Source: Naegleria gruberi (Eukaryota). Taken from it: a DNA stretch of 64,000 nucleotides. The position numbers were made by a program, and so were the translations under genes. The notes beneath the pieces were generated by a model. The model was not told where the DNA came from. It ran no database searches and was given only the letters and a program-made list of their open reading frames with translations. Of the stretch, positions 12,789 to 28,600 are shown piece by piece (position 1 is the first letter of the stretch; every line of letters begins with the position of its first letter). Where the stretch lies: assembly GCA_000004985.1 (NCBI GenBank), contig GG738890.1; one strand, 5' to 3'.

Positions 12789-15509
12789 TTGAAAAAAATG
12801 TCTGATTTGCTCCAGCAGATTGTTGGTGATGAGGACGAATACTATGATGACGATGACGACGATTATGATTACGATGAAGAATACAATGATGAAGAAGAAG
12901 AAGGAGGAGAAGAGGAAGAAATAATAGAAGAGAATGATGCGGAAGAAATTATTGAACAAACTAAAGCTAATCTAACATTTAAAAATCACTCCGAACGAAA
13001 GCAAGAATTAAAACAGAACAAACATACAAAATCTAAACTAGTTGCTTCCAGTAATGATAATCATCATCACTCAGAACAAGTATTAGAAATTTCGGAAGAG
13101 GAAATGGAATACTATAAACAATTGAAACTCTATGGAATTAATGGTCCACCAAAGAAGGAAGATGGTGAATTGAATGAGGAAATTAATTTCAAATTGGATG
13201 TTTTACAATCCTCTAAAATGTTTTTCGAAAGTGTACAGCCGACATTGGTTACTATTTATTCTGGATCTAAATTATATGATGATCAGTACAGACACCTTCG
13301 TCAAAATTCATATAGATTAATTAGAGAGAAGGGTTATCAAACAGATCAAGAAATGATGGCAGCAGAGTTGACTCATCCAAGATTATTAGTGGATATTATG
13401 CCTCTTTCAAAATCTATTGACTATGTGCAACAGATTATGAACAGAACTGAACATTTGAGCTGTTTATCATCCGATATGAAATATTTATATATTTATGGAG
13501 GAAAGTATAGAAATTCACTTCGAGATGATTTTATTCAATACGAGATACTAACAGGTAAAATGAATATTTACAATAATTTGAGTTTAGCATCCCATATTGA
13601 TAATTATCAGGGAACTTGTATTGTAATACCTCCATTATTTGGTGGGGGAATGTTTGAGCATGATGGTAAAGTCTATATTATTGGAAAGGGAGAAAAATCT
13701 CCAAGTACTCATATTTACACAATTGAAAATCTTAGAGAACCAATGAAGGTTAAAAACGGAATCAGTGCAGGTTATCCTTGGTCATATCAGCATGTAAATA
13801 CTATATTTAATAGTAGAACTTTTTTTACTATCCATCATTCATATGAATCAAATGTTTTGGAAGTTTTCTTATTTGGAGGAAAATGTGCAGAAAAAGCTAT
13901 GGATGAGATGATTAATATTCACATTCCAATACAAAATTCATATGTACAACCTATTACCTATACTGTATTGACAAAACCTAAAGTTGGAGAGTGGCCATCA
14001 GCAAGATATGGCCACTCTTCTTGTAACATAGCAAATCTTATATTTATTTATGGTGGTATAAATACCAAGAATCAATTATTGAATGATCTATACATGTTCG
14101 ATACAACCACTCAAGTTTGGACTGAAGTCAGTGTCGAATCAATGCTTCCACCACCTCTCTTTAAGCACCAATCATTCTCAATTAATAACCAATCTTTTTA
14201 TATATTTGGTGGTCAAACTCAACACGACGCTTCCAACTCACTATTTAGATTTGATATAACAGACAAGAAGTGGTACTTGATCGAGGTTATTTCAGATGAA
14301 AGAAATGCAAAATTGTCAGGTCATCAATGCTTGGCAACCAGTAACAAGTTATTCATTATTGGTGGAGTTTCTGATCAGGAAAATACCAAATCAATGAGAA
14401 ATTTCAGTGTTCTCTTGAATGTGAGTGATCCAGGAAAACCTATCCCAATCTGTAATTATTTATCTACCAAGAGAAGAGAAGGATATTTGTGTGACATTAT
14501 TTTTAGAGTTAAGGATATGGGAACCGATACTACAAGTCACATTTTGGCACATCGGTGCATTCTAAAAGCAAGATGTTCCTACCTAACTGAAAAATTTTCA
14601 AACTGTGTAGAAACTATGAATACTCATAATTTTGAAGGAACATTTCTAGATGAGGAAATTGGAGTGGTGGATATATCTGAATGTCAAACACACATTTTTG
14701 AAAAATATTTGGAATTCTTGTATAGTGGATCTCTTTATTTGGAGAATTTAGAGGTGGTTAGTCAATTTTTGGAATTTGTAAAGAATATTTCTACAGAAAG
14801 ACACTACCCTTCCCTTCAAAAGATTTGTACATTGGATAGTAGAAAGGATTTGAGTTTGACCAAACAAATTTTGGCCGATATGCACAAGGATTTTGCCACT
14901 CTGATTGACGACAATACCTATAGCGATGTAGTGGTAGTTTTGGATCAGGAAAATATGTTTGAAAAGGATTCTGTTCCTATGGAAGATGGGGAATTCAACG
15001 AAGAGCTTCTTTCTCCTCTCACTTCAGCCACTATTTCTTCTTCTGGAATTTCTGTACATAGGCTCATCATGTCCAGATCACCATTCTTCTCTAGAATGTT
15101 TGTAACATCTGGCATGATGGAAACCAAAGAGAAAGTTGTACACTTGTCAGACTATTCCAAAGAAGTAATGATTGATCTCTTAAAGTATTTATACACAGAT
15201 ATTATTCAACTCTCTCCAAGCAATTGTTTGGGTGTGCTAGTATATTCCCTCATGTTTGACTTGACAGATTTGGCAAGTTGTTGCAGAAGAATGGTAATTT
15301 CACTACTGGACAACAGCACTGTGTGGGTGGTTCATGAAATTGCCATTCTCTACAATGAAAAATCCTTAGAGAGCGAATGTGAGCACTTTATTGCTAACAA
15401 CTTTGTGACTCTGAATTCGAGTTCTGCATTTTTAGACCTGCCAGATATGACTAGAATTAGAATTAAACAACTCTACGAAAGAAAGTATCATAAGAATAAG
15501 ACTAAATGA
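12789..15509 (+). CDS. LZTR1-like protein: Kelch-repeat beta-propeller followed by two BTB/POZ domains; acidic N-terminus
   Basis: There are about six Kelch-type repeats (YIYGGKYRN, LFGGK, IFIYGGINTKNQLLNDLYMFD, FYIFGGQTQ, LFIIGGVSDQ). Two BTB domains follow (YLCDIIFRVKD...HRCIL and YSDVVVVLDQ...VHRLIMS). The N-terminus has D/E/Y runs encoded by a GAT/GAA repeat. Confidence 0.75.
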   Translation: MKKMSDLLQQIVGDEDEYYDDDDDDYDYDEEYNDEEEEGGEEEEIIEENDAEEIIEQTKANLTFKNHSERKQELKQNKHTKSKLVASSNDNHHHSEQVLEISEEEMEYYKQLKLYGINGPPKKEDGELNEEINFKLDVLQSSKMFFESVQPTLVTIYSGSKLYDDQYRHLRQNSYRLIREKGYQTDQEMMAAELTHPRLLVDIMPLSKSIDYVQQIMNRTEHLSCLSSDMKYLYIYGGKYRNSLRDDFIQYEILTGKMNIYNNLSLASHIDNYQGTCIVIPPLFGGGMFEHDGKVYIIGKGEKSPSTHIYTIENLREPMKVKNGISAGYPWSYQHVNTIFNSRTFFTIHHSYESNVLEVFLFGGKCAEKAMDEMINIHIPIQNSYVQPITYTVLTKPKVGEWPSARYGHSSCNIANLIFIYGGINTKNQLLNDLYMFDTTTQVWTEVSVESMLPPPLFKHQSFSINNQSFYIFGGQTQHDASNSLFRFDITDKKWYLIEVISDERNAKLSGHQCLATSNKLFIIGGVSDQENTKSMRNFSVLLNVSDPGKPIPICNYLSTKRREGYLCDIIFRVKDMGTDTTSHILAHRCILKARCSYLTEKFSNCVETMNTHNFEGTFLDEEIGVVDISECQTHIFEKYLEFLYSGSLYLENLEVVSQFLEFVKNISTERHYPSLQKICTLDSRKDLSLTKQILADMHKDFATLIDDNTYSDVVVVLDQENMFEKDSVPMEDGEFNEELLSPLTSATISSSGISVHRLIMSRSPFFSRMFVTSGMMETKEKVVHLSDYSKEVMIDLLKYLYTDIIQLSPSNCLGVLVYSLMFDLTDLASCCRRMVISLLDNSTVWVVHEIAILYNEKSLESECEHFIANNFVTLNSSSAFLDLPDMTRIRIKQLYERKYHKNKTK

Positions 15510-15530: not shown

Positions 15531-16592
15531 TCAAAGCAGCTTGATTCTCCAAAATAGAATTCTATTGTCATAGCTTGCAGTGGAGAAGCTAATTTGATGA
15601 GATTCCTTTTTGAATAGTTGTAAACTGTGAATGTGTTTTGAATGGTAGATTCCTCTTTCATTTTCCAACTTTCCAACAAATTTCCATTCATTGCCATTTT
15701 GCAATTCGAATAGAAATGGTGCATTATCATAACCAGCAGCTATAAAATGCTGTGTTGAAACAAAAATTCCACAAGTAAACGCCAATCCACTGTGTAATAT
15801 TTCCTGTTTCGGATAATCTTTAAAGCTTGGATCCAACTTATCATTCGTATATCTATAAAACAAAATTGATGAATTTGAACAAAGAACTGCCAACCATAAC
15901 CCATCTGGAGAGAATTCCAAATAATTTGCCTTATTTTCCAATAGCCTTCTCATATAAACAGTACCATACCTATCTTTTGTTCTTTCTTCATTCCACTTAC
16001 TTGCACAATAGATCAGTAAACTATTCGAAACATCCACACAAGCAATAGTTCGACAATTGGGATGCCAAGCACAAGCAATTGCTGCAGAATTTAATTTCTT
16101 TAATTTTGCAAATCCAAAAGCAGTTTCTTCTTCATAATGACAAACAGAAAGAGTTTGATGAGATCCAACAGCAAATCTAGAGCCATCTTTCGCCCATTTG
16201 CAGAAGAAACATGGAGAACGGCTTCTTGTTAGGATTTTGATACAGTTTTTTAAAGTGTGTTCATGATTTTCGTCTAGTTTCCACAATTTACACATCTTTC
16301 CAATAGAATAGGTTGAACAGGTTACAATCGTGTTGGTTTCTTGATTCCAATCAAATTTAATTTCAGTATCTATGGTTTCCGAATCTTCATCATTCAAAGT
16401 AGAATCAATAATATATTTACAATCACTTTTCGAATAATCCATTCCGAATTCATTATCTGAATCCATACGAAACGGATTAAAATCTTGAGGAATTTGATAA
16501 ATAAATATGAGAGAAGTATTTTTCTTGCTGATTGCTAATAAATTTCCATTCCAAACGTGATGTGATAGAAATTGTTCACCAGTGTTTGCCAT
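15531..16592 (-). CDS. WD40 protein resembling Arp2/3 complex subunit ARPC1 (p41)
   Basis: An N-terminal SHHVWN...LAI motif resembles ARPC1 SCHAWN. The C-terminal FIAAGYDNAPFLFELQNGNEWKFVGKL resembles ARPC1 VAAGHDCFPVLF...GKLSFGGRL. The sequence is divergent and could be a paralogue. Confidence 0.55.
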   Translation of the reverse strand: MANTGEQFLSHHVWNGNLLAISKKNTSLIFIYQIPQDFNPFRMDSDNEFGMDYSKSDCKYIIDSTLNDEDSETIDTEIKFDWNQETNTIVTCSTYSIGKMCKLWKLDENHEHTLKNCIKILTRSRSPCFFCKWAKDGSRFAVGSHQTLSVCHYEEETAFGFAKLKKLNSAAIACAWHPNCRTIACVDVSNSLLIYCASKWNEERTKDRYGTVYMRRLLENKANYLEFSPDGLWLAVLCSNSSILFYRYTNDKLDPSFKDYPKQEILHSGLAFTCGIFVSTQHFIAAGYDNAPFLFELQNGNEWKFVGKLENERGIYHSKHIHSLQLFKKESHQISFSTASYDNRILFWRIKLL

Positions 16593-16982: not shown

Positions 16983-17408
16983 ATGGAGGATCATAATAAT
17001 TCAATGTTAGTTTCACGTTCGGAATCATCCCTTTCGTTAGTTTCCAATCAAACCAATGAACCACTTCATAAGAGAATGTCGAGTGGAGTTAGTTTGGATG
17101 ATTCCATTGAAATTCTGGAGGAAGGAGCAAATTCTCATCATGGTGATTCCAATGATGTAGATGATAATCATACAAAAATACAAACAACAACAATTAATGG
17201 ACAACGAAGAATTGTGGGCAAACAGCAGCAAGAAAAGAAACATCTTCCTCATGAGCCTGGAATGTTCTCTACATTTGTTGATTCGTTTTTGGAATATGTT
17301 GAAGATGTGTTTGGATTGGGAGGTGATGCAAATAATAATAATGGAGAACATCAAACTCATGATCCTACTGTGGATGCAAAGGCTAATTTTAGTAGTTTTA
17401 TCAATTAA
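16983..17408 (+). CDS. hypothetical S/N/D-rich protein
   Basis: 141-aa ORF with an A-rich start context and no recognisable domain. Confidence 0.3.
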   Translation: MEDHNNSMLVSRSESSLSLVSNQTNEPLHKRMSSGVSLDDSIEILEEGANSHHGDSNDVDDNHTKIQTTTINGQRRIVGKQQQEKKHLPHEPGMFSTFVDSFLEYVEDVFGLGGDANNNNGEHQTHDPTVDAKANFSSFIN

Positions 17409-17446
17409 TGAATATCATTTGATGAAGAGTATATTATGAATATCAT

Positions 17447-17621
17447 ATGATGAAGAATAATTTAGGATTTAATTGTAAATATTGTAATTATCAATGAATT
17501 TGGATTATGAATAAACACGTCTCTATTGAGAATAGAGCTACGTGAGCTTGACTTTTCTCTACTTTTAAACTTTCAGCAATTAATTGATAGCATTGACTCT
17601 TTTTCCAATTGTTCTTTTTCA
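17447..17621. repeat. direct repeat copy 1 (~175 bp, ~95% identical to 21886-22059); orphan duplicate of the 3' end of the RNA-ligase gene
   Basis: By eye this aligns base-for-base with 21886-22059, with a few substitutions and 1-2 small indels. The flanking sequence diverges immediately outside both ends. Confidence 0.85.
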
Positions 17622-17794
17622 TCACTAGTGAAAGTTGAATTAAATTTGAAGATGTTCATTTCCATATCTAATGATTTCAATTGTTTTGCCTTACTAATAA
17701 CCTCCAATGTTTTATCATTTGTACTTGAAAAACCATATTGACATCCCAAACAAGTAGAGCTGCATGTTGCTATCTATTCTAACAACACAATAAT

Positions 17795-19422
17795 TCATAA
17801 TAACACACAATTTGGTTCTGATTTTGCTTTGTAATTTGTCACCTCAACTTTTGTCTTATCAATTAAAAGAGTTTTCAATTGATCTATTTTAGATTCATTT
17901 CTAATATTATTTGCTTGAATAGCAAGATGTTTCAATTGTTTCATTTCATTAATGTATTCAGCTCCAATATTTCCAATTCTATTATAACTAACATCAAGTT
18001 CGGTCAATTGTGTCAGTTGGCTTAGAAATTTACATCCTTCATCAGAAATATTATTAAGAGCCATGCTAAGATCAGTCAATTGGGTCAGTTCACTAATATT
18101 TTTACATCCATTATCGGAAATATTATTTCCATTTAGATATAGAATAGTTAGAGATTTCAGATTGGTGATGGATTTGATTGAATCATCGCCTATTGAACTT
18201 GAGCAAATGCGTAAGTCAGTTAATTGTGTCAATGTAGATAAATATTCGAAACTTTCTGCGTTAATCTTATTGTAACTGAATCTGAGACAAGTTAATTGTT
18301 TAAATTGACTGATATGTTTAGCTCCTTCACTTCCTATCTCATTATGACTAATATCAAGTTCAGTTAAATTACCAAGTTGACTAATATATTCCGTTCCTTC
18401 ATTACGAATACTATTATTATTAATTTCCAAAAACATCAACTGTTCCATTTCACTAATGAATTTAGCCCCTTCAGCGCCAATTTTGTTATCATAAATGGAA
18501 AGTCTTGTCAATTGTTTGAGTTTTCTAATTTTCTTACATCCTTCAGCTCGTAGATTATTCTCTATTATGGTAAGAGTAGTTAAGTTTCCCATCTCACTAA
18601 CATATTCGACACCTGTTTCACCAATATAATTGTTACTGATATCAAGATTGGTCAATTGTTTCATTTCACTTATGGATTTAGCACCTTCTTCACCAATTCT
18701 ATTACAATTAATTCCAAGATTGGTCAATTGATTGAGAGCTACAAGATATTTAGCACCTTCTGCACAAATGTCATTCACACCAATATTAAGAATTTTCAAT
18801 TGGCTTAATTGACCTATAAATTTAGCACCTTCTGCTCCCAACTCATTTGTTCTAATATCTAGATTAGTCAACTTTAATTTGGTCAAATAACTAGCTCCTT
18901 CAGCACTTATATTATTCCCATAAAGATTAGCACTTGTCAATTCTTTACATTCGCTCAAATATTTCACACCTTCATTTCCTATTCTATTGTAACCTATTTC
19001 AATACTTGTCAATCTTTTAAAATAATTTAATTATTATTAAATCCAATTGATATTGTCGATTTGTCTTCCACTTTTAGAAAAGTTACATTTTGTAAAAATT
19101 GTGATTTTTGCATTCGTGAATTCTTGTTGTAAAGTTTCAATGAAAGTTTCAATTTTTTTACAATATTTAACCACTGTTTGGAAACAAGTGCGCAATTTAG
19201 AATTAGAAATTTAAAATTTCGAGAATGACACAAGAAGGAAAGAGTCTCTAATAGTGTATCGTCTGAGAATTGTTTCGAATAATTGTTTGTTTCTTCCGAA
19301 TTATTAAACATTAATTTTTTACACTCTATTCCGATACGTGGCGATGATGATTCTTGTTCGGAATGAGAGGATTTAAAATTCGAAACTGGGACTGAAAAAT
19401 TCTTATTGTTCAATTCACTCAT
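17795..19422 (-). pseudogene. F-box / leucine-rich-repeat (RI-type LRR) protein gene, apparently disrupted between F-box exon and LRR body
   Basis: The upstream ORF (19027-19422) encodes an F-box (DTLLETLSFL...LVSKQWLNIV). The downstream ORF (17795-19012) encodes about 16 RI-type LRRs (L..L.I..N.IG.EGAK), but its first codon is TTG and its first ATG lies about 115 codons in. The two ORFs are in different frames 14 nt apart. No GT-AG intron restores the frame. A near-tandem duplication of an LRR-start segment (STISIGFNN / TSIEIGYNR) spans the junction. The gene could still be functional if I have missed a non-canonical intron. Confidence 0.5.
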
Positions 19423-19556
19423 TTTTTTCTATTAACTTTCATACTGTAAAATATATTTTACAATTTTGTAAGTGTCTTAGCAAAAAATGATGAATAAATT
19501 CTGTTTAAAAACCTTAATTTAAATGGTTTTCAAAAAATGCAAAAAACCTTAAAAAA

Positions 19557-21854
19557 ATGGCAAGACGAGCGAAAAAACGTTTTTCAAAAACTAACCACAA
19601 GAGATCTGCTGCAGCAGAAGAGGACAAAACCACAAATGTTTCCAGCAGACTAGTCTCGGGATGCCTTAATGATACAAATAATACAACAATAAAACAAGAA
19701 GAACCATCACAACAATTAAAGAAATGTAAAATAGAAGTTGTAGAAAAATCTATAGCAGATGTAGATTTAAGGCTACGAAATATATATCATGATGAAGAAG
19801 CTTCACATCGACAACAAGAAATATTAGGGAATTCATTCGTAAGATACCTTCCACCTGTTTTTGGAAAAACAACACACGAAAGCCTTAAAAATCTCACTGT
19901 ACGAAAGGAGAAGATATTTAGGTATGAATTATTCCCTGAATGTATTTATCCACCAGAGAAACAAGATCTTGGTGAATTGATTGCAAATTTGATAAAAGTT
20001 AGTGTGAAAAGTCTTTTGGAAGGTAAATTATCTGAAAAGGAGCAAAAATTAAGAATTACTTTAACTGGAAGATCAGGTGATGGAAAAACTTTCTTACTAT
20101 ATTATTTAGCCAATAAGTGTAATGATTCCTGTATTTTTATTCCAATTCATCTTTCAATTAATGAGTTTTTTTATAGAGCTAGAATTCCTGATGAAGATGC
20201 TCTGTTGATTGACTGTGGAGTGTTAATTTGCTCCTATTTGACCTATGTTCAAGAGTTTTTGGAGAGTGGCATTACCAATCCTTACAAAATTATGGAACTG
20301 TTCAACAATACATATTCAAGAAAGGTAATGGAGAGAGCAATAACATTTGCAAGCACCAACAGTAATATGTTAGTACGAGTAGAATGTCAAAAATTGAGTA
20401 ACAAATTTGGTAAATATCCAGTGTTTGTTATTGATGAAGCACATATCATGGCCTCATCTCTTGCCAACAAAATTTCAAATGATGATGGAAAAAGAAATGA
20501 ATCTGCATTGACTGCAATAACGAGAGTGGCAGGATCAATCCCTGTAATTTGTTGCTCCACCAAGATATCCGGAGTTAATCTAGGAATAGATGTTTCTGGT
20601 TCTGAGCATTTGTACAAGTTTAATTTAACAACAGATATTATTGATATACCAAAGAGAGACATTTCCCCAAGCGATTTCATTTCCTTCTTTATTAACCCTT
20701 TTGAGAATGAAGATGTAAAACTCTTTACAAATATGCTTCTCTCTGAATGCCCAGTCCGTATTCATACAATGATTATAGATGAGTACTGGTTAGTTATGGA
20801 CAAAAACTTCCAAACAGATTCAAACTCCAAAACATGGAATCTGAAGAAAGCTATTAAGGGAGTGCTCACAAATCAAATGCCTTCTTTAGGAAAAAAAATG
20901 AAAGAGGAGTTTGATAATATTACTAATGAACGGCTAAAAAAGCTATTATTCTTTGTTTGGACAGGTTTAAATCCTAACATTGAAAACAATTCAGATTTTG
21001 ACTCGAGTTCACTAAAGAGCGTGGTACAAGAATTCAACCTCCATTCACATGATTTGTCTCAAGAGTATGAATTGTTCTCTCAACAAATGCTGCATCTGGG
21101 ATGTGGTAAACCAAAGGACGGAACTTATAGATTTTCTGATGCTTTTTTTAGGTTTGGATATTTTGAATCCATGAGAGATGATAATTGGTACACATATGTT
21201 GAAAACTTGGGGAGCTGTATGAAACACGTAGTACAATCTCATGTTGGGAAGAAGGGATTTCTTTTTGAAAGAGTTATTGGATTATTGTTAATGAGCATTT
21301 CAAAATCATTAAAGGGGAAACCACTTACAAGTTGCGTTTTGTTTGCAGGGGCAAAAGGCACTTGGTTGGATAATTACACAATCACCATTAGATCAGTAGA
21401 AATGACCCCAAAATATTATGAGCCATTGATTTTGTTTGAAATAACGGACATTATTGCCTGTTCAATTGACGAAAATTCAAGTTGCGATTTATTTCTTTCC
21501 TTAGTTCCTATCAGCAAAGATGAAAAGTTTGTTCCTTGTTTAACTTCTATCAAATTTCTAAAGACATTGCTTGGTGAAGAGGAAATTTTCAAGTCAACTT
21601 TGATTGAAAATCAACAAACAAATGTTTTATCATTTAATGAGTTGATGATAAGAAGTAATCACCACGCCAAAAGAAGATTAAGACTTGGATTTGCTGCCAA
21701 TTCTGTAATTGGACATGATGTTAAAATATCAAATGATGATGACATTCAAATATTGTTTTCCCTTAATCACAGATTATTATTTGATTATTTGAAAGAAAAT
21801 TTGGATTTTCTTCATGAAGCATTGATGAATCTCAATACCATTATTCATCGATAG
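19557..21854 (+). CDS. orphan P-loop NTPase (Walker A GRSGDGKT, Walker B VFVIDEAH) of unassigned family
   Basis: 765-aa intact ORF. Walker A is LTGRSGDGKTFLLYYL and a DEAH-type Walker B, YPVFVIDEAHIMAS, lies about 115 residues downstream. No other recognisable domain. It is divergently arranged with the F-box/LRR gene across a ~135-bp shared upstream region. Confidence 0.5.
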   Translation: MARRAKKRFSKTNHKRSAAAEEDKTTNVSSRLVSGCLNDTNNTTIKQEEPSQQLKKCKIEVVEKSIADVDLRLRNIYHDEEASHRQQEILGNSFVRYLPPVFGKTTHESLKNLTVRKEKIFRYELFPECIYPPEKQDLGELIANLIKVSVKSLLEGKLSEKEQKLRITLTGRSGDGKTFLLYYLANKCNDSCIFIPIHLSINEFFYRARIPDEDALLIDCGVLICSYLTYVQEFLESGITNPYKIMELFNNTYSRKVMERAITFASTNSNMLVRVECQKLSNKFGKYPVFVIDEAHIMASSLANKISNDDGKRNESALTAITRVAGSIPVICCSTKISGVNLGIDVSGSEHLYKFNLTTDIIDIPKRDISPSDFISFFINPFENEDVKLFTNMLLSECPVRIHTMIIDEYWLVMDKNFQTDSNSKTWNLKKAIKGVLTNQMPSLGKKMKEEFDNITNERLKKLLFFVWTGLNPNIENNSDFDSSSLKSVVQEFNLHSHDLSQEYELFSQQMLHLGCGKPKDGTYRFSDAFFRFGYFESMRDDNWYTYVENLGSCMKHVVQSHVGKKGFLFERVIGLLLMSISKSLKGKPLTSCVLFAGAKGTWLDNYTITIRSVEMTPKYYEPLILFEITDIIACSIDENSSCDLFLSLVPISKDEKFVPCLTSIKFLKTLLGEEEIFKSTLIENQQTNVLSFNELMIRSNHHAKRRLRLGFAANSVIGHDVKISNDDDIQILFSLNHRLLFDYLKENLDFLHEALMNLNTIIHR

Positions 21855-21885
21855 CCATTTATGATTGTGAATCCACATCCTTATT

Positions 21886-22059
21886 TGATGAATAATTTAG
21901 GATTTAATTGTAAATATTGTAATTATCAATGAATTTGGAGATTACGAATAAACACGTCTCTATTGAGAATAGAGCTACGTGAGCTTGACTTTTCTCTACT
22001 TTTAACCATTCAGCAATTAATTGATAGCATTGACTCTTTTTCCAATTGTTCTTTTTCAT
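21886..22059. repeat. direct repeat copy 2; overlaps the last ~50 codons and stop of the RNA-ligase gene (minus strand)
   Basis: Partner of 17447-21621 with ~95% identity. On the minus strand it encodes ...ALFSIETCLFVISKFIDNYNIYN*. Confidence 0.85.
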
Positions 22060-23835
22060 TAGGATGGACATGATTTCATGAATTTGGAGTCGATAAATTT
22101 TACACAATTCACTTGATGGGATGCCTAGTGGTTGACCTTTGTAATATTGGATTTTCTCATCTGAAAACATTTCATCTCTTTGGTGAGCTTCATGATTAAG
22201 TAAGCATTTAGGATAGGAAGTGCATTGATACAGGAGTGTACCAACTTTGTACGTATGAATATCAAAACATTTACCACAATGACACTTTCTATATTGCACT
22301 AAATCTCTTTTCAGTCTTTTCAAAACCATAGCCTTCCCACAATAGCATTGTACCTTGTATTGGTTAGTTTTCTTGTCTAGAAATGGTTTCGTTTTGGCTA
22401 GACCATTGTTTGGCTCTGTAACTTTCAACTTCTTGGCTGGTTGGCAATAATTTTCAGAGTGCTTGCTTGCTCTACTACTAAGCACTGCACTCTCGAATGC
22501 CTCTTGTTGACTCTGACCAGAGAATAATTGAGCTACAATGTAAGTTGAATTATTCTTCAATAGTTGAGATAGTGTTGGTTTTTCAGAACAAGTGCTGTTT
22601 TTGAGGACCTTAATTAAATCAAATAATCTTGATCGATTTTTCACAGAGGGATCGTTTTGAAATGTTTCAAATTCTTGTTCGTTCATTTTAGAACAGGTAC
22701 TCCACAAACTTTCTAATTGTACAATTTCCTTTTGGAGAATATTCTTACAGTATTGATATCTAACTTCGAGTTCTTTCATTTCATATTCACATTCGTAGTA
22801 CTTGCTCAAAACTGAAATGATAAATGGCTTATCGGAATTACTCGATTTCTTATAGTCTTCAAAGTGAACAACGAACGGAATGAGGAATTTTGGAGTGGCT
22901 TGAATCCATCCTCTATATTTCATTTTATGAATGAGGAGATAGAATGGATTTTTCAATTTCAATCGCTGATTGTTGGTGTCTCTCATGATGAATCCTTCAA
23001 TTCTCAATCTTGCTTCTACATTCTCATGAGTAGAGATGAATGTATCCAAATGTTTGAGAGCTTGTTCCAGACTTGAAAAATTCTCAAAACGTTTTGGTCT
23101 CTTCCAATTCTTCAACTCGGCTCTCTTTCTCAATTTCAAGCAAATTTTATCAACTTGATCCCTGGAGAGTTCCTTTCCACTTTGTGTCTCTACAATTGTC
23201 AGTAAGTAAATGACAGGATTCTGATAGATTTGAACAATTTCATTTTGTGAGGAACACATTTCCAAACAATAGGTCAGTGATGGATCCAAATCCTTTCCAA
23301 TCTCATTCAATTCTACTCCGCCACAAATTTCCACAAATAGCTCTCTATATGTTTTCTGTGTTTCACTTCCAATTGCCAAATAATCCTCACAAAAGTTGTG
23401 TCTCGTTGCAATCATCCACTCTCCCTCATAGCAAAACATTAAAAGAAACGTTCCATCTTCCTTTGTCTCCAAACTGAAATTAGAATAATCAAACAATTTG
23501 GATTTCTCCAATGATGGCGACTGATCCTGTTCCAAAAACACCAATTCTCTATCATCATTTAGTCCTCTAATATTCGGAGAGGACGAATACGAATGGTGCT
23601 GATTAAAAAACCTGGTCATTCCTCTCGCCACAATTTTCCACGAATTTAATTCCAACACCAAGCCTCTGCATTCATTGACAATTTGTTCATCACGTGGCGA
23701 TTGAATATTGTCATAATTTAATACAATTAATGGGAAGGAAGTTTGATCGGGATGTGTTGATGAGCGAATTTTGTATTTTTCATGGAGAGTCGTGATGGAT
23801 TGACCCTTCTGTTGGAGGAATTGTTGTGTTTGCAT
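21904..23835 (-). CDS. Rnl2-family (ATP-dependent) RNA/polynucleotide ligase-like protein with Cys-rich C-terminal zinc-finger-like module
   Basis: Nucleotidyltransferase motif I is KEDG (LETKEDGTFLL). Motif IV EGFIMRD lies about 160 residues downstream and motif V LKLKN follows about 15 residues later. This spacing matches T4 Rnl2. The C-terminus has a CYCGK...CHCGKC...C cluster. The likely start is the internal Met (MQTQQF) at 23835, which has an A-rich context; the ORF itself extends to 23922. Confidence 0.55.
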   Translation of the reverse strand: MQTQQFLQQKGQSITTLHEKYKIRSSTHPDQTSFPLIVLNYDNIQSPRDEQIVNECRGLVLELNSWKIVARGMTRFFNQHHSYSSSPNIRGLNDDRELVFLEQDQSPSLEKSKLFDYSNFSLETKEDGTFLLMFCYEGEWMIATRHNFCEDYLAIGSETQKTYRELFVEICGGVELNEIGKDLDPSLTYCLEMCSSQNEIVQIYQNPVIYLLTIVETQSGKELSRDQVDKICLKLRKRAELKNWKRPKRFENFSSLEQALKHLDTFISTHENVEARLRIEGFIMRDTNNQRLKLKNPFYLLIHKMKYRGWIQATPKFLIPFVVHFEDYKKSSNSDKPFIISVLSKYYECEYEMKELEVRYQYCKNILQKEIVQLESLWSTCSKMNEQEFETFQNDPSVKNRSRLFDLIKVLKNSTCSEKPTLSQLLKNNSTYIVAQLFSGQSQQEAFESAVLSSRASKHSENYCQPAKKLKVTEPNNGLAKTKPFLDKKTNQYKVQCYCGKAMVLKRLKRDLVQYRKCHCGKCFDIHTYKVGTLLYQCTSYPKCLLNHEAHQRDEMFSDEKIQYYKGQPLGIPSSELCKIYRLQIHEIMSILMKKNNWKKSQCYQLIAEWLKVEKSQAHVALFSIETCLFVISKFIDNYNIYN

Positions 23836-24096
23836 TTTTTTTGGCTTGATTTTACAATTTCGATTTTGAACTTGTGAGATACTTAAAAGAATATTATTGT
23901 GTATTGAAAGAATAAATATCACAACATTTGCTTTAAATGATTTGTAAGTTTAACATCTCTGACAGCTTTGATGTCAATGTTCTGGTGTGAAAATCTTGAA
24001 AAAGGTCTTGCTATCAAACGAAGCAATCCTCGGCAACTTGAGAACTCATTATTTCAAAACGTTGTTGCTTGAGTCTTGTTATGGAGTTGTACGAAA

Positions 24097-25548
24097 CTAA
24101 TTATTGGTATCACTAATGTTATTAGATTCTTGTGCATTTTGTTGAGAAAGATAAACTCGAGTTGAATGTAAATGATCAAATAGGGAGGTATGAGTGAATT
24201 CCTCTGAAATCCATTCAGGAATTGCAGTTTCAAAAGTCCACTTGTCTGATAATTCGTAACGCCATGAATGTAGATGGATACTCAGTGGTACAGTGTCATC
24301 TTCCTCAATGTTTTTAGAGGTATATTCTGCATTACAGGAAATGCAAACAGTTTCAAATGGCTGTAAGAAGGTTTCCTCTTCAGGTCGAATGTTTGTATGT
24401 GAACGTTTGAAAGGACCTGGTTTTGGCTTTTTTGATTTGGGAGCATTCTTTTCAGAGGTCTCCTTTCTCTTGTGAGGATTTTCTTCTGTTGGTATGGAGG
24501 TATCTGTTGATGATTCACTATTTTCCAAGGAAATATCAGATGTTGATTCGAGTTGGTGATTGGAAAAGTCGACTCTCCAACTTTCTTCCAAAGTCTTTTT
24601 TTGCACTTCCAATTCCTTAATGAATTGTTCGTTATAGAAAAAATCATTAATGATAGGATTTCCAATAGATTCCAAATGAATTCTAATCTGATGTGTTCTT
24701 CCAGTGATTGGTTTACACATTATGAGTGAAATATCCTTTTCCTTATTGTAGACAATACCAGAAAAGAGAGTAATTGCCTCAAACGTTCCCAATTCATCAT
24801 CTGCTGACCAAGTTCCATTCTTGTGATTTTTGCAATATACCTTCTTTTCACATTTCACAAAACTGTTATTTAAATCCTTCACCAATCCACTCACTTCATA
24901 TTCTCCTTTCCACTTTCCTTTCACAACAGCCAAATAATATTTTCCAATTGCCTTTTCTCTTGTCTTGATCATTTCCACAATTTCTCCCGAAACCTTCTTA
25001 TTCTTTGCCAAAACAAGAACTCCCGATGTACTATGATCCAATCGATGAACAACATGAAGTGTTCCATATCCATTCTCCTCCAAAATATAAGTCAATGAAT
25101 TCTTTCGATATCTTCCACAGGGATGAATAGGAAAACTAGCTGGTTTATCGACAACTAATAAATCTGACTCATCATATAAAATTGGAATATTCCTATCAAA
25201 TATTGGTTTCTCATGAAAATGTACTCGATGAGCAATTGTCTTGCTTTTATCCCACTTTTCCTCTAAATTATTTAAATTTTCGTTATTAATTTTAAATCGA
25301 CCTAATTCGAAGGCTTTCATCAGATATTGTTCGGAAAAGTAGGGAAATTCCGCTCTATAGACATCAAGTACCTTCTTATCAACCCATCTATCTCGACATC
25401 CTGTTTGAAAGTCGAGAAAATAGGGAATTGCATGACGAAGTCCATTCCGAACAAGATATTGTTTGCCTCTTGCTAATTCAATGGTTTTCTTGACGAGGAG
25501 ATTTGAAGATGATGACACTGTTGGAATTGTTAGAGGCATCTCACTCAT
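24097..25548 (-). CDS. RluA-family RNA pseudouridine synthase (RPUSD-like)
   Basis: S4-like N-terminus and the RluA catalytic motif HRLDHSTSGVLVLAKN. The C-terminal tail is acidic and S-rich. Confidence 0.75.
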   Translation of the reverse strand: MSEMPLTIPTVSSSSNLLVKKTIELARGKQYLVRNGLRHAIPYFLDFQTGCRDRWVDKKVLDVYRAEFPYFSEQYLMKAFELGRFKINNENLNNLEEKWDKSKTIAHRVHFHEKPIFDRNIPILYDESDLLVVDKPASFPIHPCGRYRKNSLTYILEENGYGTLHVVHRLDHSTSGVLVLAKNKKVSGEIVEMIKTREKAIGKYYLAVVKGKWKGEYEVSGLVKDLNNSFVKCEKKVYCKNHKNGTWSADDELGTFEAITLFSGIVYNKEKDISLIMCKPITGRTHQIRIHLESIGNPIINDFFYNEQFIKELEVQKKTLEESWRVDFSNHQLESTSDISLENSESSTDTSIPTEENPHKRKETSEKNAPKSKKPKPGPFKRSHTNIRPEEETFLQPFETVCISCNAEYTSKNIEEDDTVPLSIHLHSWRYELSDKWTFETAIPEWISEEFTHTSLFDHLHSTRVYLSQQNAQESNNISDTNN

Positions 25549-25611: not shown

Positions 25612-28600
25612 TTAGAAATATTTATCGCCATTACAACTTGATTGATGGTTGTAAATTGGACCACTTGAAGTTGCACTATATCCACAAAGCCAACAAAAAT
25701 GATTTGGGCAAGCTCTACAGGTCATATGGTTACATCCCTCATTCTTTTCAATAGGTGTGTGGCATTGTGGACAACTCTTGGTATGTCTCCTCTTGTATTC
25801 TTCAAAAAGTTTCTCACAATCAACACAAGGTCCTTGGTGTGCATTTTTGTGACATTTCAAACAATAGTCCTTATCACAAACGATGCAATAGTATGATTGA
25901 ACTCCTGTTACTCTCGATAGATTTTGACAAGTATTACAGTATGTCCATTTAGTCTTATTAGATGTAATGTACTTCTCAAGGAGAATGTTACATGGTTGAG
26001 TGAGTTTCTTGGCATCATTATCAAAGGAGCATACGATATCCATAAAAGGTAATGGTTGTTGGCAGTAATTACAGCAAAGAAGACCTGATTCAATGTTGAA
26101 ACCATCTACTTGGAGAGCTAGACATGCTTGACAACATGTGTGTCCACAAAATGTAAGGTTGTTTGGGTTAATATCATTACAACAAATATCGCATTCATTT
26201 GTTGAAGAAGCGCCACTATGGGTTGATTCAATTTCTTCAACTTTCTTCTTTACAGTTTCAAAATCAGCCTCTGAAGAATCAACCTCTAATGTTCTTTTCT
26301 TAAGGTTCAAATGTATACTCCCCTTAATACACTTTTTAATGTCATCATAAGAAGATCCTCCATTTCCTACAATTGCTTTCATGTTTCTTAATTTGATTTC
26401 TCTAATTTTACTGGCTTGAATAGTGCCAGATATTTCCTTTGCAACAAAATCCCTTTGAGGTCCAAATACTTTGATAGATGATGATCGAGAATCAAAAGCA
26501 AGTAAAATCTCAGGATACCTTTTTGTTGTATCCTCCTTGATTTTGGGGAATCTTCTTTGAACGTTAGCTTTCAAGGAGAATGCTATTTTGATTATTGTGT
26601 GTGAGATTATCTCATTAACTTTCTTTTTGGCCTTTTCAAACTCTGACAAATTTGAAACTGCTTCAAACTTGATTTTTCCACTGTTACCAGTTTCAGTCAT
26701 TTTCTTATTGGGTTCTTGAATGATCTCATTGAAAGACACTTTGATTTGGTGCTCATAGTATATGCTTTCAAAAACAGCACTCAACACATTTTTCTTGTTA
26801 AGACTTTCAAAAACATTTTTTGGAATAGTAATTGAATCGGTCTTATAATATAATTGTAAACTTCCATTTCCAAAAGTAGTCCCTTGTAATGTTGCAATGG
26901 CTGTGTCAGCACTCCTCTTGTTATTATACTTAACTAGAGCTTTGATGAATTTCTTACTTTCCTTTTCAGCTAATGGCAACAATTCCATAACTTCTAATCC
27001 TGGAAATTGTGTAAATAAAGAGTGCAGTTGTGTAGTAATCATTTCTAAGTCAATCAGATTGTTACACTCATCTCGGTGGAAAAAAATTTGTGTGTAAGGA
27101 AGTTTGTTTTTAAAAAGAACACCTGCTAAATGTGACTCTGTGAAATCGGTAGAAAGTTGATCAAAAGCGAGTTTGTTTTGTTTGATTTGAACTTTCCCAA
27201 GTGAACCATTCAAAACTTGATTTGCCTCTATAGCAGATTGGTTGTTAGGAAATTCAACCACTGCTTTTCCTTTGCAAGGAGTAAGGTAATATTTAAGTTG
27301 AATAAAGGGAACATTTTCATCTATTTGCAGCTGTGTATTTTCACTGAGACTAGATGGGAAAAGTTGAATAAAAGTTTCATTCTTCAACTCGGAATAAACT
27401 CTTTCTGCAACTATGCTGTCTTCAAAGGTAACATAGCCCTCCAATTTCTGTGCGCTTGTATTGTTTGGATATGTCACAAACTCCCATACTGGTCCATATT
27501 TCACAAATAGTTGCTCAATATCACAGGCACTCTTCTGCTCAATAGCTATTTTAAAGTTAATTCTTACAAACTCCTTGGAGGTTAGGATTTTTACAACATT
27601 TAGACCAGAACCAACCAAGACTCTGATATTCTTTTGATCATTAGGAACATATTCGTATAATTGTTTGGAAATTCTTTCCTCAATCTGTTTGCAGAATTTT
27701 TCAATTTTTGGTTTGTTTTCTTGCTCTTCATTTTCAGATAATTCCATTCTCAACTCATTCATTTCTTCATCGACTTCGACCAACACGCCAAGTTCTTTCT
27801 CTAATTGTTCTAAAAGCTCTCCACCTCTTGCTTTCAAAAGAGGAAGAGCAGATTTAGGAATTTTCTTGTTATAAGGTTTTTTGACAAATTGTTTGATACG
27901 ACTATAGTTAAAAGATTGGTTATACTTTTGTATAATATTAATATCTACAGGGGTGACGTTTTTCATGTAGAGCTTTTCAGTTCTCATAAGTTCATAGAAG
28001 AGAACATATGAAGGAGGTTTTTCTTCTGAAAATAATACAGATGATGGATGGAGACAAGCTTCTAAATTCAATTCCAATAACTTATAGATGAAATTTCCAT
28101 TACTACTCTTTCCTATATAGTACGCAAAGTTAGAGAATAAACCACAAATAATAGAATCCAAAATTACTTTCTTTTTGAGTTCCTCAGAAGTGTTCTTATC
28201 ATTGATACTTTCAGAGTTAAGGGATTTAATACTCTTCTCAAGATCTTTCAAGGTTGCGAAGGCCATATTGAATGCAGAATAATTCAAATGATTGTCCTTA
28301 CAAAATTGTGATCTTTCTTTAGATTTTTTCTTCAAAAATTGTTCAAATAGCAAATAGAGAGAATATAAATCTCCTTCCTGTTGAGAGGAAGAAAGCTTGC
28401 TAATCGAAATATCATCCTTGTCTTTTCCATCCTTAGATCTTTGGAAAACAATGTTAGATACAGTTGTAATAGCAGCAACTTTTAAAATATCAGATGAAAT
28501 TCCATTTTCAATTCCTTCAATAATCATCTTGGAAACAGATGGTTCCATATAGAGTTGAGATGCAATTTGACCTGATTTGGTAATACGCAAAAGGTTAGCA

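What the first reader, a model, noticed from the sequence alone, without database searches (positions are those of the whole stretch)
17447..22059. 4.4-kb segment bounded by ~175-bp direct repeats, one of which is the genuine 3' end of an RNA-ligase gene
Positions 17447-17621 and 21886-22059 are ~95% identical direct repeats. Copy 2 encodes the last ~50 codons and stop of the minus-strand Rnl2-like ligase (21904-23835). Copy 1 is an orphan duplicate of that gene end with no upstream ORF continuation. Between the repeats lie an apparently disrupted F-box/LRR gene and an intact orphan DEAH-signature P-loop NTPase that share a short divergent promoter. This is the signature of a segmental insertion or duplication, for example by non-allelic recombination or an unusual mobile cassette with a long target duplication. 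It is not ordinary intergenic sequence. A repeat-flanked NTPase+LRR cargo is the most system-like unit in the window.
Basis: seen in the sequence. Interest (0 to 1): 0.6.

Follow-up and report, generated by a model that had tools for sequence, protein, structure and literature searches.

The report
Gene-end duplication flanking a Naegleria insertion
In the amoeba Naegleria gruberi, a 4.3-kb piece of DNA carrying two genes was inserted into the tail of an RNA-ligase gene, and 172 bp of that tail were duplicated so the ligase stayed intact; it is a well-documented one-off rearrangement, not a new genetic system.

Summary
R1 (17451-17622) and R2 (21886-22059) are 96.6% identical direct repeats. 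They are the only dispersed non-LRR repeat in the 64 kb (self-BLAST E 1e-76).

The window is Naegleria gruberi nuclear DNA. R2 is the true end of an Rnl1/T4-type RNA ligase (not Rnl2): 51 codons, the stop and 18 nt. R1 is a decayed orphan copy.

In N. fowleri, N. lovaniensis and an environmental relative, the ortholog of gene 16983-17408 lies directly downstream of the ligase. None of them has an LRR or NTPase gene in between.

An independent metagenome contig (~99% identical) has the same NTPase|ligase junction, so that junction is not an assembly artefact.

The 4263-bp insert has no terminal inverted repeats, no transposase and no second copy. Its codon usage is host-like. Its left end cuts an LRR gene, within a patch where the LRR repeat and the ligase sequence match 13/16 in register.

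Best reading: a lineage-specific, repair- or replication-mediated insertion of native DNA, with a long target duplication that kept the conserved ligase C-terminus.

The cargo is a frameshifted F-box/LRR family gene plus a fast-evolving orphan AAA+-like ATPase. It is not a demonstrable "system". Interest is low to moderate.

The parts
16983..17408 (+). Gene X, a 141-aa conserved Naegleria protein of unknown function. It is the ancestral convergent neighbour of the ligase.
   Evidence: Its orthologs lie immediately downstream of the ligase. The stop-to-stop gaps are 249 bp in N. lovaniensis, 219 bp in N. fowleri and 39 bp in environmental contig L007. tblastn gives 1.8e-8, 1.7e-7 and 5e-7, with shared VRSES and EPGLF..VDS.LEY motifs.
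17408..17463 (.). 28-nt tandem duplication (two units, 86% identical). The second unit runs 13 nt into R1.
   Evidence: (family D13). Its origin is unexplained; it may be slippage in the old ligase/gene-X intergenic spacer.
17451..17622 (-). R1, an orphan decayed copy of the ligase 3' end. It is the left copy of the target duplication.
   Evidence: 96.6% identical to R2, with a 2-bp deletion that breaks the ligase frame. At two codons (W to S, and V to I) R2 keeps a residue found in orthologs; the tryptophan is conserved in N. fowleri and N. lovaniensis but not in the environmental relative, and at the V/I site isoleucine also occurs in N. lovaniensis.
17623..21885 (.). Inserted segment M (4263 bp), absent from the orthologous site in three relatives.
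   Evidence: no LRR or NTPase hits at the orthologous loci. No TIRs. GC and codon usage are host-like.
17573..17773 (-). Remnant of further LRR units, in the LRR gene's frame but beyond its stop codons. It runs across the M|R1 junction.
   Evidence: VISKAKQLKSLDMEMN; 30 bits to N. gruberi LRR paralogs against a shuffled maximum of 24; the CAATTG motif at 17678 and the one in R1 at 17606 are exactly one 72-nt LRR period apart.
17795..19422 (-). Gene of the F-box/LRR_RI family, disrupted by a 1-nt frameshift near 19030. The F-box ORF is 19027-19422 and the LRR ORF is 17795-19012.
   Evidence: Pfam F-box and LRR_6. The N-terminus matches N. gruberi F-box/LRR paralogs P0023 and P0025. Best paralogs are 34-52% identical, and there is no identical annotated protein. 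Frame analysis.
19423..19556 (.). 134-bp divergent intergenic region between the F-box/LRR start and the NTPase start.
19557..21854 (+). Orphan 765-aa AAA+/STAND-like P-loop ATPase (Walker A GRSGDGKT, Walker B VFVIDEAH) with an unassigned C-terminal half.
   Evidence: The only close match is the N. gruberi protein itself. There are 8 distant environmental relatives at 27-44% identity. Pfam gives only weak AAA_22 and nSTAND3 hits. The AF2 core, residues about 130-340, resembles AAA+ folds such as PCH-2 and ORC4. dN/dS is about 0.5 against the second strain.
21886..22059 (-). R2, the functional 3' end of the ligase (51 codons, stop and 18 nt). It is the right copy of the target duplication.
   Evidence: It has no SNP against the second strain.
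21904..23835 (-). RNA ligase of 643 aa: an Rnl1/T4-type nucleotidyltransferase domain plus a C-terminal DUF3268 zinc-finger domain.
   Evidence: Pfam PF09511 at 1.1e-22 and PF11672 at 2.5e-7. Orthologs are 51-56% identical in N. lovaniensis, N. fowleri and an environmental contig.

Best explanation
This is a lineage-specific structural insertion in Naegleria gruberi, not a genetic system.

Ancestrally the RNA-ligase gene and the small gene X (16983-17408) were convergent neighbours, with about 60 bp between their stop codons. In the N. gruberi lineage a 4263-bp piece of native-looking DNA was joined into the ligase gene 153 nt upstream of its stop codon, that is, 156 nt from the end of the stop. 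The piece carried the 3'-truncated end of an F-box/LRR family gene, that gene's body, a shared 134-bp divergent promoter region and an AAA+-like ATPase gene.

During the event, 172 bp of the target were copied to both sides of the insert: the last 51 codons, the stop and 18 nt of flank. The right copy (R2) keeps the ligase whole. The left copy (R1) is an orphan that has since decayed.

The most likely mechanism is DNA-repair or replication-based. One option is a template switch (FoSTeS/MMBIR-type) that returned 172 bp behind its departure point. The other is fill-in of a widely staggered break. Either would join at short homeologous patches.

Only an insertion that regenerated the strongly conserved ligase C-terminus could persist, which would explain why such a long duplication is seen.

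Shown: the repeat, the empty sites, the independent M|R2 junction, the absence of transposon hallmarks and the host-like composition.

Inferred: the direction of the event, the repair mechanism and the role of selection.
For: - **Repeat.** It is real and unique in the window.
- **Source organism.** The window is N. gruberi.
- **Empty sites.** The gene X ortholog directly follows the ligase in N. lovaniensis (L002), N. fowleri (L003) and the environmental contig L007. No LRR or NTPase homolog is present at those loci.
- **Which copy is original.** At the Trp codon R2 keeps the residue found in the N. fowleri and N. lovaniensis orthologs, while R1 carries the changes and a frameshift.
- **Age.** R1 and R2 differ by only 2.3% plus one indel, whereas the ligase proteins of the species are only 51-56% identical. 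The duplication is therefore much younger than the species splits.
- **Independent support.** ENA metagenome contig L001 (44 SNPs, about 99% identical) has the same NTPase|R2-ligase junction. The junction is real, and the insertion predates that strain split.
- **No transposon hallmarks.** The insert ends have no TIRs (local score 17 against a shuffled mean of 17.6). M holds no transposase, integrase or RT domain, and no tRNA or Rfam element.
- **Native composition.** NTPase codon usage is indistinguishable from neighbouring genes (RSCU r 0.93, GC3 0.27). The LRR gene's best relatives are N. gruberi paralogs.
- **Left end is not a discrete terminus.** It cuts through LRR-like coding sequence. 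The junction lies where the LRR unit TGAAATGAAACAATTG and the ligase TGAAAAAGAACAATTG match 13/16, exactly in the 72-nt LRR register.
- **Precedents.** Flanking duplications of 111-250 bp are reported in PMC5488345, and small duplications at the inserted sites of replicative insertions in PMC5120786.
Against: - No donor locus was found. The NTPase has no paralog in any searched protein collection, and the best LRR paralog is only 34-52% identical. The insert is therefore not a recent copy of an extant annotated locus. It must have moved without leaving a copy, lost its donor, or come from a close relative.
- The X|R1|M side of the structure was not seen in a second assembly.
- The phylogenetic position of the environmental relative is unknown, and N. 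fowleri and N. lovaniensis are sister species (my own knowledge, not tested here). Polarity rests mainly on the youth of the duplication.
- The microhomology argument uses the LRR consensus, not the true donor sequence. My rough estimate of its chance probability is only 0.01-0.1.
Confidence: 0.62

Rival explanations
1. M is a non-canonical mobile cassette, or part of one. It inserts into gene 3' ends and makes a very long target-site duplication. Its AAA+-like ATPase, possibly with a nuclease-like C-terminal half, acts in transposition.
For: - M is flanked exactly by direct repeats of target sequence.
- The ATPase family is rare and patchily distributed. It is absent from N. fowleri and N. 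lovaniensis and is known only from a few environmental contigs.
- The conserved C-terminal pattern KG..E ... D[LV]F ... S[IV]KF is reminiscent of PD-(D/E)xK motifs (resemblance only, not tested).
Against: - There are no TIRs or LTRs and no TC/CTRR Helitron ends (sequence).
- No transposase, integrase or RT domain is present.
- It is single-copy as far as protein searches can tell.
- The left end truncates an LRR gene rather than ending at a defined terminus.
- The environmental homologs lie in unrelated contexts without LRR neighbours.
- IMG/VR holds no relatives.
Confidence: 0.07
2. A circular DNA that already carried a copy of the ligase 3' end integrated by a single crossover (Campbell-type). 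This is analogous to genomic islands that integrate at gene 3' ends and bring a replacement end.
For: The end product is exactly what ends-in recombination gives: direct repeats made of a gene's 3' end, the gene restored, and an orphan copy on the far side.
Against: - M encodes no tyrosine or serine recombinase.
- The circle would already need M next to a ligase end, which presupposes the arrangement to be explained.
- The in-register LRR/ligase homeology at the M|R1 junction points to an illegitimate junction there rather than a pre-existing one.
Confidence: 0.1
3. M is ancestral at this position. R1 is a later 172-bp templated patch copied from the nearby ligase end into the spacer next to gene X, and the relatives lost M.
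For: - Short templated patches copied from nearby sequence are a known outcome of break repair (literature list).
- A 28-nt tandem duplication sits at the X|R1 edge, which suggests local polymerase slippage.
- N. fowleri and N. lovaniensis are sister species (my own knowledge), so they count as one loss.
Against: - M would have to be absent from three relatives, including the environmental lineage L007.
- The patch would have to land, by coincidence, exactly at the border between M and gene X, so that R copies flank precisely the segment missing elsewhere.
- The LRR remnant is truncated at R1.
Confidence: 0.12
4. It is an assembly artefact: a false duplication or a mis-join of haplotypes in the draft assembly.
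For: The assembly was made from a strain said to carry more than one haplotype (my own knowledge, not tested). The X|R1|M side was not recovered from a second data set.
Against: - The window contains no N.
- R1 and R2 differ at 4 sites and by a 2-bp indel, so they are different sequences and not one read pile used twice.
- An independent MEGAHIT contig from another sample reproduces NTPase|R2|ligase.
- R1's left flank is the gene that synteny predicts should sit next to the ligase end.
Confidence: 0.03

Closest known systems
Insertional rearrangements made by replicative repair (FoSTeS/MMBIR) or break fill-in, with a duplication at the insertion site
   Same: A kilobase-scale piece of ordinary genomic DNA sits at a new site. 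A stretch of the target is duplicated on both sides. No transposon features are present, and the junction lies in a short patch of similarity. Small copy-number gains at inserted sites are reported for human insertions (PMC5120786).
   Different: The donor is unidentified, so microhomology cannot be read directly. This is a single fixed event in a protist, inferred from comparison and not observed.
Unusually long target-site duplications at retroviral or retrotransposon insertions (HERV-K HML-2, 111 and 250 bp)
   Same: The direct duplication of target sequence is of the same order of length, and it was confirmed by comparison with an empty pre-integration site (PMC5488345).
   Different: Those inserts are LTR elements. 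This insert has no LTRs, gag/pol, RT or integrase.
Bacterial genomic islands and integrative elements that insert at the 3' end of a gene and regenerate it
   Same: The direct repeats consist of a gene's 3' end. The gene remains intact, and an orphan partial copy marks the far border.
   Different: That family is defined by a site-specific recombinase and att sites. None is present here, the host is a eukaryote, and the far border cuts an LRR gene.
N. gruberi F-box/LRR_RI gene family (for example P0021, P0023, P0025)
   Same: The disrupted gene in the insert has the family's N-terminal F-box-like motif and 24-residue LRR_6 repeats.
   Different: It is only 34-52% identical to the nearest paralogs. 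It is frameshifted and has in-frame stops before further LRR remnants, and it is not in the annotated proteome.

Membership tests
Class II (TIR) DNA transposon | Terminal inverted repeats at the element ends | tested here: not met
   The local alignment of the first 150 nt against the reverse complement of the last 150 nt scores 16-19 for M, R1+M and M+R2. Shuffled controls average 17-18.
Class II (TIR) DNA transposon | Short target-site duplication of fixed length (2-11 bp) | tested here: not met
   The duplication is 172-174 bp.
Class II (TIR) DNA transposon | Transposase gene, or multiple copies sharing the same termini | tested here: not met
   M has no transposase domain. The window has no second copy, and the ATPase has no paralog in the protein collections. 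A search of whole-genome DNA was not possible.
LTR retrotransposon / endogenous retrovirus | LTRs belonging to the element, plus gag/pol (RT, integrase) | tested here: not met
   The flanking repeats are host ligase coding sequence conserved in orthologs. There are no RT or integrase domains.
Helitron | 5'-TC and CTRR-3' termini, insertion without TSD, Rep/Hel protein | tested here: not met
   The junction sequences show no such termini on either strand. No HUH or Pif1 helicase domain is present.
Site-specific integrative element (genomic-island type) | Tyrosine or serine recombinase encoded by the element | tested here: not met
   Pfam, NCBIfam and PADLOC scans of the ORFs in M find none.
Site-specific integrative element (genomic-island type) | Direct repeats made of the 3' end of the target gene, with the gene regenerated | tested here: met
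Repair- or replication-mediated insertion with target duplication | Empty site in related genomes | tested here: met
   Gene X and the ligase are adjacent in L002, L003 and L007.
Repair- or replication-mediated insertion with target duplication | Microhomology or homeology at the breakpoint junctions | tested here: inconclusive
   At the M|R1 junction the LRR unit consensus and the ligase match 13/16 in exact 72-nt register. The real donor sequence is unknown, and the M|R2 junction is ambiguous.
Repair- or replication-mediated insertion with target duplication | Identifiable donor locus | not testable with these tools
   The full N. gruberi genome could not be searched by DNA. Protein searches find no second copy.
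Segmental duplication by non-allelic homologous recombination | A second, highly similar copy of the duplicated segment | tested here: not met
   Only the 172-bp ends are duplicated. No near-identical copy of the NTPase or LRR gene was found.
   The Pfam hit is RNA_lig_T4_1 PF09511 (1.1e-22). NCBIfam gives TIGR02308, T4 RnlA family, at 1.7e-8 and below its cutoff. No Rnl2 family is listed.
NLR/STAND NTPase-LRR immune module | NACHT/NB-ARC-type STAND NTPase domain joined to LRRs in one protein | tested here: not met
   Only sub-threshold nSTAND3 and AAA_22 hits are found (E 0.0005-0.02, below the gathering cutoffs). The LRRs are in a separate, oppositely oriented, frameshifted F-box gene. PADLOC finds nothing.

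The most novel reading that the evidence does not exclude
The 765-aa AAA+-like ATPase family would mark a so-far undescribed kind of eukaryotic mobile or selfish cassette. It would insert into the 3' ends of conserved genes and regenerate them through a long target duplication, as a eukaryotic counterpart of island integration. The family is rare and patchy, and has a conserved C-terminal region that might be a PD-(D/E)xK-like nuclease. Under this reading the LRR gene is passenger DNA.
Probability: 0.04. Interest if true: 0.7.

Novelty: new member of a known kind. Interest (0 to 1): 0.27.

Why it matters
The locus is a clean, datable example of how a compact protist genome gains genes at a new position without destroying an essential neighbour. 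The insertion landed inside a conserved coding region and was tolerated because 172 bp of that region were duplicated.

It could be useful in three ways:
- as a marker for N. gruberi strain and species relationships;
- as a case study for repair-mediated insertions in Heterolobosea;
- as a correction to the current annotation, where the NTPase model is mis-spliced and the F-box/LRR pseudogene is not annotated.

It does not reveal a new molecular system.

Tried and rejected
**Giant-virus or bacterial origin of the window.** Rejected. The window matches N. gruberi, and its codon usage is uniform across genes.

**An intron joining the F-box and LRR ORFs.** Rejected. The two frames overlap by only a few nucleotides at 19027-19033, and both flanks align to family members. 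A 1-nt indel in the run aataataattaaatt explains the break. I worked through GT..AG candidates by hand, without a systematic scan, and found none that restores the frame.

**An intron removing the two stops at 17795 and about 17776.** Only a 33-nt GT..AG candidate fits. I judged that too short, so I treat the region as degenerate.

**Transposon hallmarks.** The scans for TIRs, tRNA genes and Rfam families were negative. I also read the junction sequences by eye for Helitron termini and found none.

**Defence-system reading of the NTPase.** PADLOC and NCBIfam found nothing. A PDB profile search found nothing. The AF2 model is poor (pLDDT 49) and shows only a generic AAA+ core.

**Viral origin of the NTPase family.** The IMG/VR scan found no relatives.

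**Second-assembly confirmation of the X|R1|M side.** This failed. Exact-protein look-ups of gene X, the WD40 gene, the ligase and P0001 found nothing. A junction 24-mer is absent from the JGI metagenomes.

**More family members with genomic context.** The attempt failed.

**Literature.** Searches for Naegleria-specific work on such insertions returned nothing relevant.

Full report
**1. The observation**

The repeat is real. R1 (17451-17622) and R2 (21886-22059) align over 174 columns with 4 substitutions and one 2-bp gap. A self-BLAST of the 64-kb window gives this pair at E 1e-76. Outside the internal 72-nt periodicity of the LRR gene, no other dispersed repeat appears. The window contains no N.

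R2 is the end of the minus-strand ORF 21904-23835: 51 codons, the stop at 21904-21906 and 18 nt of flank. R1 translates in the same frame to MKKNNWKKSQCYQLIAESLKVEKSQAHVALFSIETCLFII. It then loses the frame through the 2-bp deletion, and nothing ligase-like lies upstream of it.

**2. Where the window comes from, and what the genes are**

The 765-aa ORF is identical over 553 residues to a 'predicted protein' of Naegleria gruberi. The window is therefore nuclear DNA of this free-living heterolobosean amoeba.

Pfam assigns the neighbouring genes as follows:
- a Kelch/BTB protein at 12789-15509;
- a WD40 protein at 15531-16592;
- an unassigned 141-aa protein, called gene X here, at 16983-17408;
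- an LRR_6 protein at 17795-19012;
- a weak F-box at 19027-19422;
- the NTPase at 19557-21854, with AAA_22 below its cutoff;
- the ligase, with RNA_lig_T4_1 (1.1e-22) plus a DUF3268 zinc-finger domain;
- an RluA-type pseudouridine synthase;
- a 1746-aa DEAH helicase-RRM-IBR protein.

The ligase is therefore Rnl1/T4-type, not Rnl2-like.

**3. The empty-site test**

Ligase orthologs were found in N. lovaniensis (56% identity), N. fowleri (54%) and an environmental contig (51%), and their loci were fetched.

In all three, the gene immediately downstream of the ligase is convergent with it. It is a small protein of 167, 172 or 124 aa, and the gaps between the two stop codons are 249, 219 and 39 bp. 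This protein is the ortholog of gene X. tblastn gives 1.8e-8, 1.7e-7 and 5e-7, and the proteins share an N-terminal VRSES motif and a C-terminal EPGLF..VDS.LEY motif. The environmental protein also shares the ANF.S tail with N. gruberi.

None of these loci contains an LRR or NTPase homolog. Apart from this gene pair, the loci share no detectable synteny with the window. That makes the conserved X-ligase adjacency all the more telling.

In N. gruberi, removing M and one repeat copy restores X and the ligase with about 60 bp between their stops. The ligase C-terminus encoded by R is highly conserved (QIHEIM..KKNNW.KS.CY...KSQAHVALFSIETCLF). At the Trp codon R2 keeps the residue shared with N. 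fowleri and N. lovaniensis, while R1 carries Ser. At the other coding difference R2 has Val, as in N. fowleri and the environmental relative, and R1 has Ile, as in N. lovaniensis.

**4. Reality and age of the structure**

An ENA metagenome contig (L001, 4737 bp, sample ERZ929261) covers window 20648-25535 with 44 SNPs. It has the same NTPase|R2|ligase arrangement. That junction is therefore independent of the reference assembly, and the insertion predates the split of these two strains.

Between the two strains the ligase has dS about 0.019 and dN/dS about 0.1. The last 401 codons of the NTPase have dS about 0.034 and dN/dS about 0.5, and the ORF is open in both strains.

R1 differs from R2 at 2.3% of sites. 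This is similar to neutral divergence between the strains, and tiny compared with the 51-56% protein identity between species. The duplication is therefore recent on the species scale.

The X|R1|M side could not be confirmed from a second data set.

**5. Anatomy of the insert**

M spans 17623-21885 (4263 bp).

*No transposon features.* M has no terminal inverted repeats, no tRNA or Rfam element, and no transposase, integrase or RT domain. Its GC content and codon usage match the surrounding genes.

*The F-box/LRR gene.* It belongs to an N. gruberi family with this architecture (P0021, P0023, P0025). The F-box frame ends at 19029-19027 and the LRR frame opens at 19030, with homologous sequence on both sides. 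A single-nucleotide frameshift in an A/T run therefore separates them. No identical protein exists in the searched collections, so the gene is not annotated.

*The left end.* Beyond the LRR ORF's stop at 17795 and a second stop near 17776, the same frame continues with LRR-like sequence (VISKAKQLKSLDMEMN). This scores 30 bits to paralogs against a shuffled maximum of 24. It runs straight across the M|R1 border, so the insert's left end cuts an LRR gene and is not a defined terminus.

*The junction register.* The CAATTG motif that recurs once per 72-nt LRR unit occurs at 17678 in the remnant and at 17606 inside R1, exactly one period apart. The LRR unit consensus TGAAATGAAACAATTG matches the ligase sequence TGAAAAAGAACAATTG at 13 of 16 positions in that register. 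This suggests that the junction formed where donor and target happened to resemble each other. I rate it as suggestive only, with a rough chance probability of 0.01-0.1, because the donor itself is unknown.

**6. The ATPase**

*Relatives.* An exhaustive HMMER search of 1.84 billion representatives found only 8 relatives (E 1e-22 to 4e-4, 27-44% identity). All come from environmental assemblies on low-GC contigs of eukaryotic appearance. None comes from N. fowleri or N. lovaniensis.

*Genomic context elsewhere.* One relative lies in the same metagenome as the ligase/X contig L007, but on a different contig and in a different context.

*Conserved sequence.* LTGRSGDGKTF (Walker A) and FFVDEAH (Walker B) are conserved. 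So is a C-terminal pattern KG..E ... D[LV]F ... S[IV]KF.

*Family and structure searches.* Pfam gives only sub-threshold AAA_22, nSTAND3 and AAA hits. PADLOC, NCBIfam and a PDB sequence search give nothing useful. The AF2 model is poor (pLDDT 49), with a moderately confident core at residues about 130-340 that resembles generic AAA+ folds such as PCH-2/TRIP13 and ORC4. IMG/VR holds no relatives.

*The annotated gene model.* The annotated N. gruberi model (572 aa) splices out about 21216-21313 and changes frame. Homologs align to residues 549-673 of the unspliced ORF, so the 765-aa reading is the better one.

**7. Interpretation**

The simplest history is an insertion of native-type DNA into the ligase gene 153 nt upstream of its stop codon, with 172 bp of the target duplicated at both sides.

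The final structure fits either of two routes. One is a replicative template switch that returned 172 bp behind where it left (FoSTeS/MMBIR-type). The other is fill-in of a widely staggered break. Precedents exist for both kinds of signature: small gains at inserted sites of human insertions (PMC5120786), and 111-250-bp flanking duplications confirmed against empty sites (PMC5488345).

Selection explains the survival of this particular event. An insertion at this point without the duplication would have removed a strongly conserved ligase C-terminus.

Four rivals remain less likely, for the reasons given with each:
- a non-canonical mobile cassette;
- Campbell-type integration of a circle;
- an ancestral M with a later 172-bp patch;
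- an assembly artefact.

The main gap is the missing donor. No second copy of either cargo gene exists in the searched collections. M was therefore either moved rather than copied, or its source has been lost, or it lies in unsampled DNA.

**8. Verdict**

The 'mobile cassette' and 'system' ideas are not. This is a new instance of a known kind of rearrangement. It is of modest interest, mainly as a neat natural example and as an annotation fix.

Noticed in passing
L002 13331-16381 (N. lovaniensis PYSW02000054.1): A 972-aa gene with OrfB_IS605 and Cas12f1-like TNB domains (Fanzor/TnpB-like) lies about 400 bp beyond the gene X ortholog in N. lovaniensis. No gene with those domains is called in the 10 kb beyond the gene X ortholog in N. 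fowleri (L003), so it may be a separate lineage-specific insertion next to the same gene pair.
   Followed up: no
window 23943-24096: About 160 bp in the window (roughly 23943-24102) stand where strain contig L001 has only 6 nt, a net difference of about 154 bp, between the pseudouridine-synthase stop and the ligase start. The difference also changes the last residues of the RluA-type protein (483 against 487 aa). The extra sequence has no other copy in the window.
   Followed up: partly
window 21004-21037: Seven of the 24 SNPs between the window and L001 in the NTPase gene fall within 34 bp. This is a local hypervariable patch, or possibly a small conversion tract.
   Followed up: no
window 19557-21854 versus P0001: The public N. 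gruberi gene model for the NTPase (572 aa) removes about 21216-21313 as an intron and ends early. Homologs support the uninterrupted 765-aa ORF, so the model is probably wrong.
   Followed up: yes
window 21904-23835 and 17795-19422: No NCBI-sourced N. gruberi protein identical to the ligase or to the F-box/LRR ORFs turned up in the homology searches. The ligase's only near-identical hit comes from an ENA metagenome. These two genes seem to be missing from the reference annotation.
   Followed up: partly
window 17408-17463: A 28-nt tandem duplication (24/28 identical) starts at the last base of the gene X stop codon, and its second unit runs 13 nt into R1. No explanation was established.
   Followed up: partly
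window 25612-30852 (-): A 1746-aa protein combines N-terminal CCCH-like cysteine-histidine repeats (my reading of the sequence, not a domain hit), a DEAH helicase with HA2 and OB domains, RRM domains and a C-terminal IBR (RBR-type E3-like) module. This is an unusual architecture that may deserve a separate look.
   Followed up: no
L005 6000-7194 and L007 (both from JGI metagenome 3300002220): The same environmental sample yields a ligase/gene-X contig and a contig with an NTPase-family homolog. GC content is similar (37-38%). The NTPase homolog is split over three frames, so it has introns or is a pseudogene. The two contigs may come from one uncultured Naegleria-like organism.
   Followed up: partly
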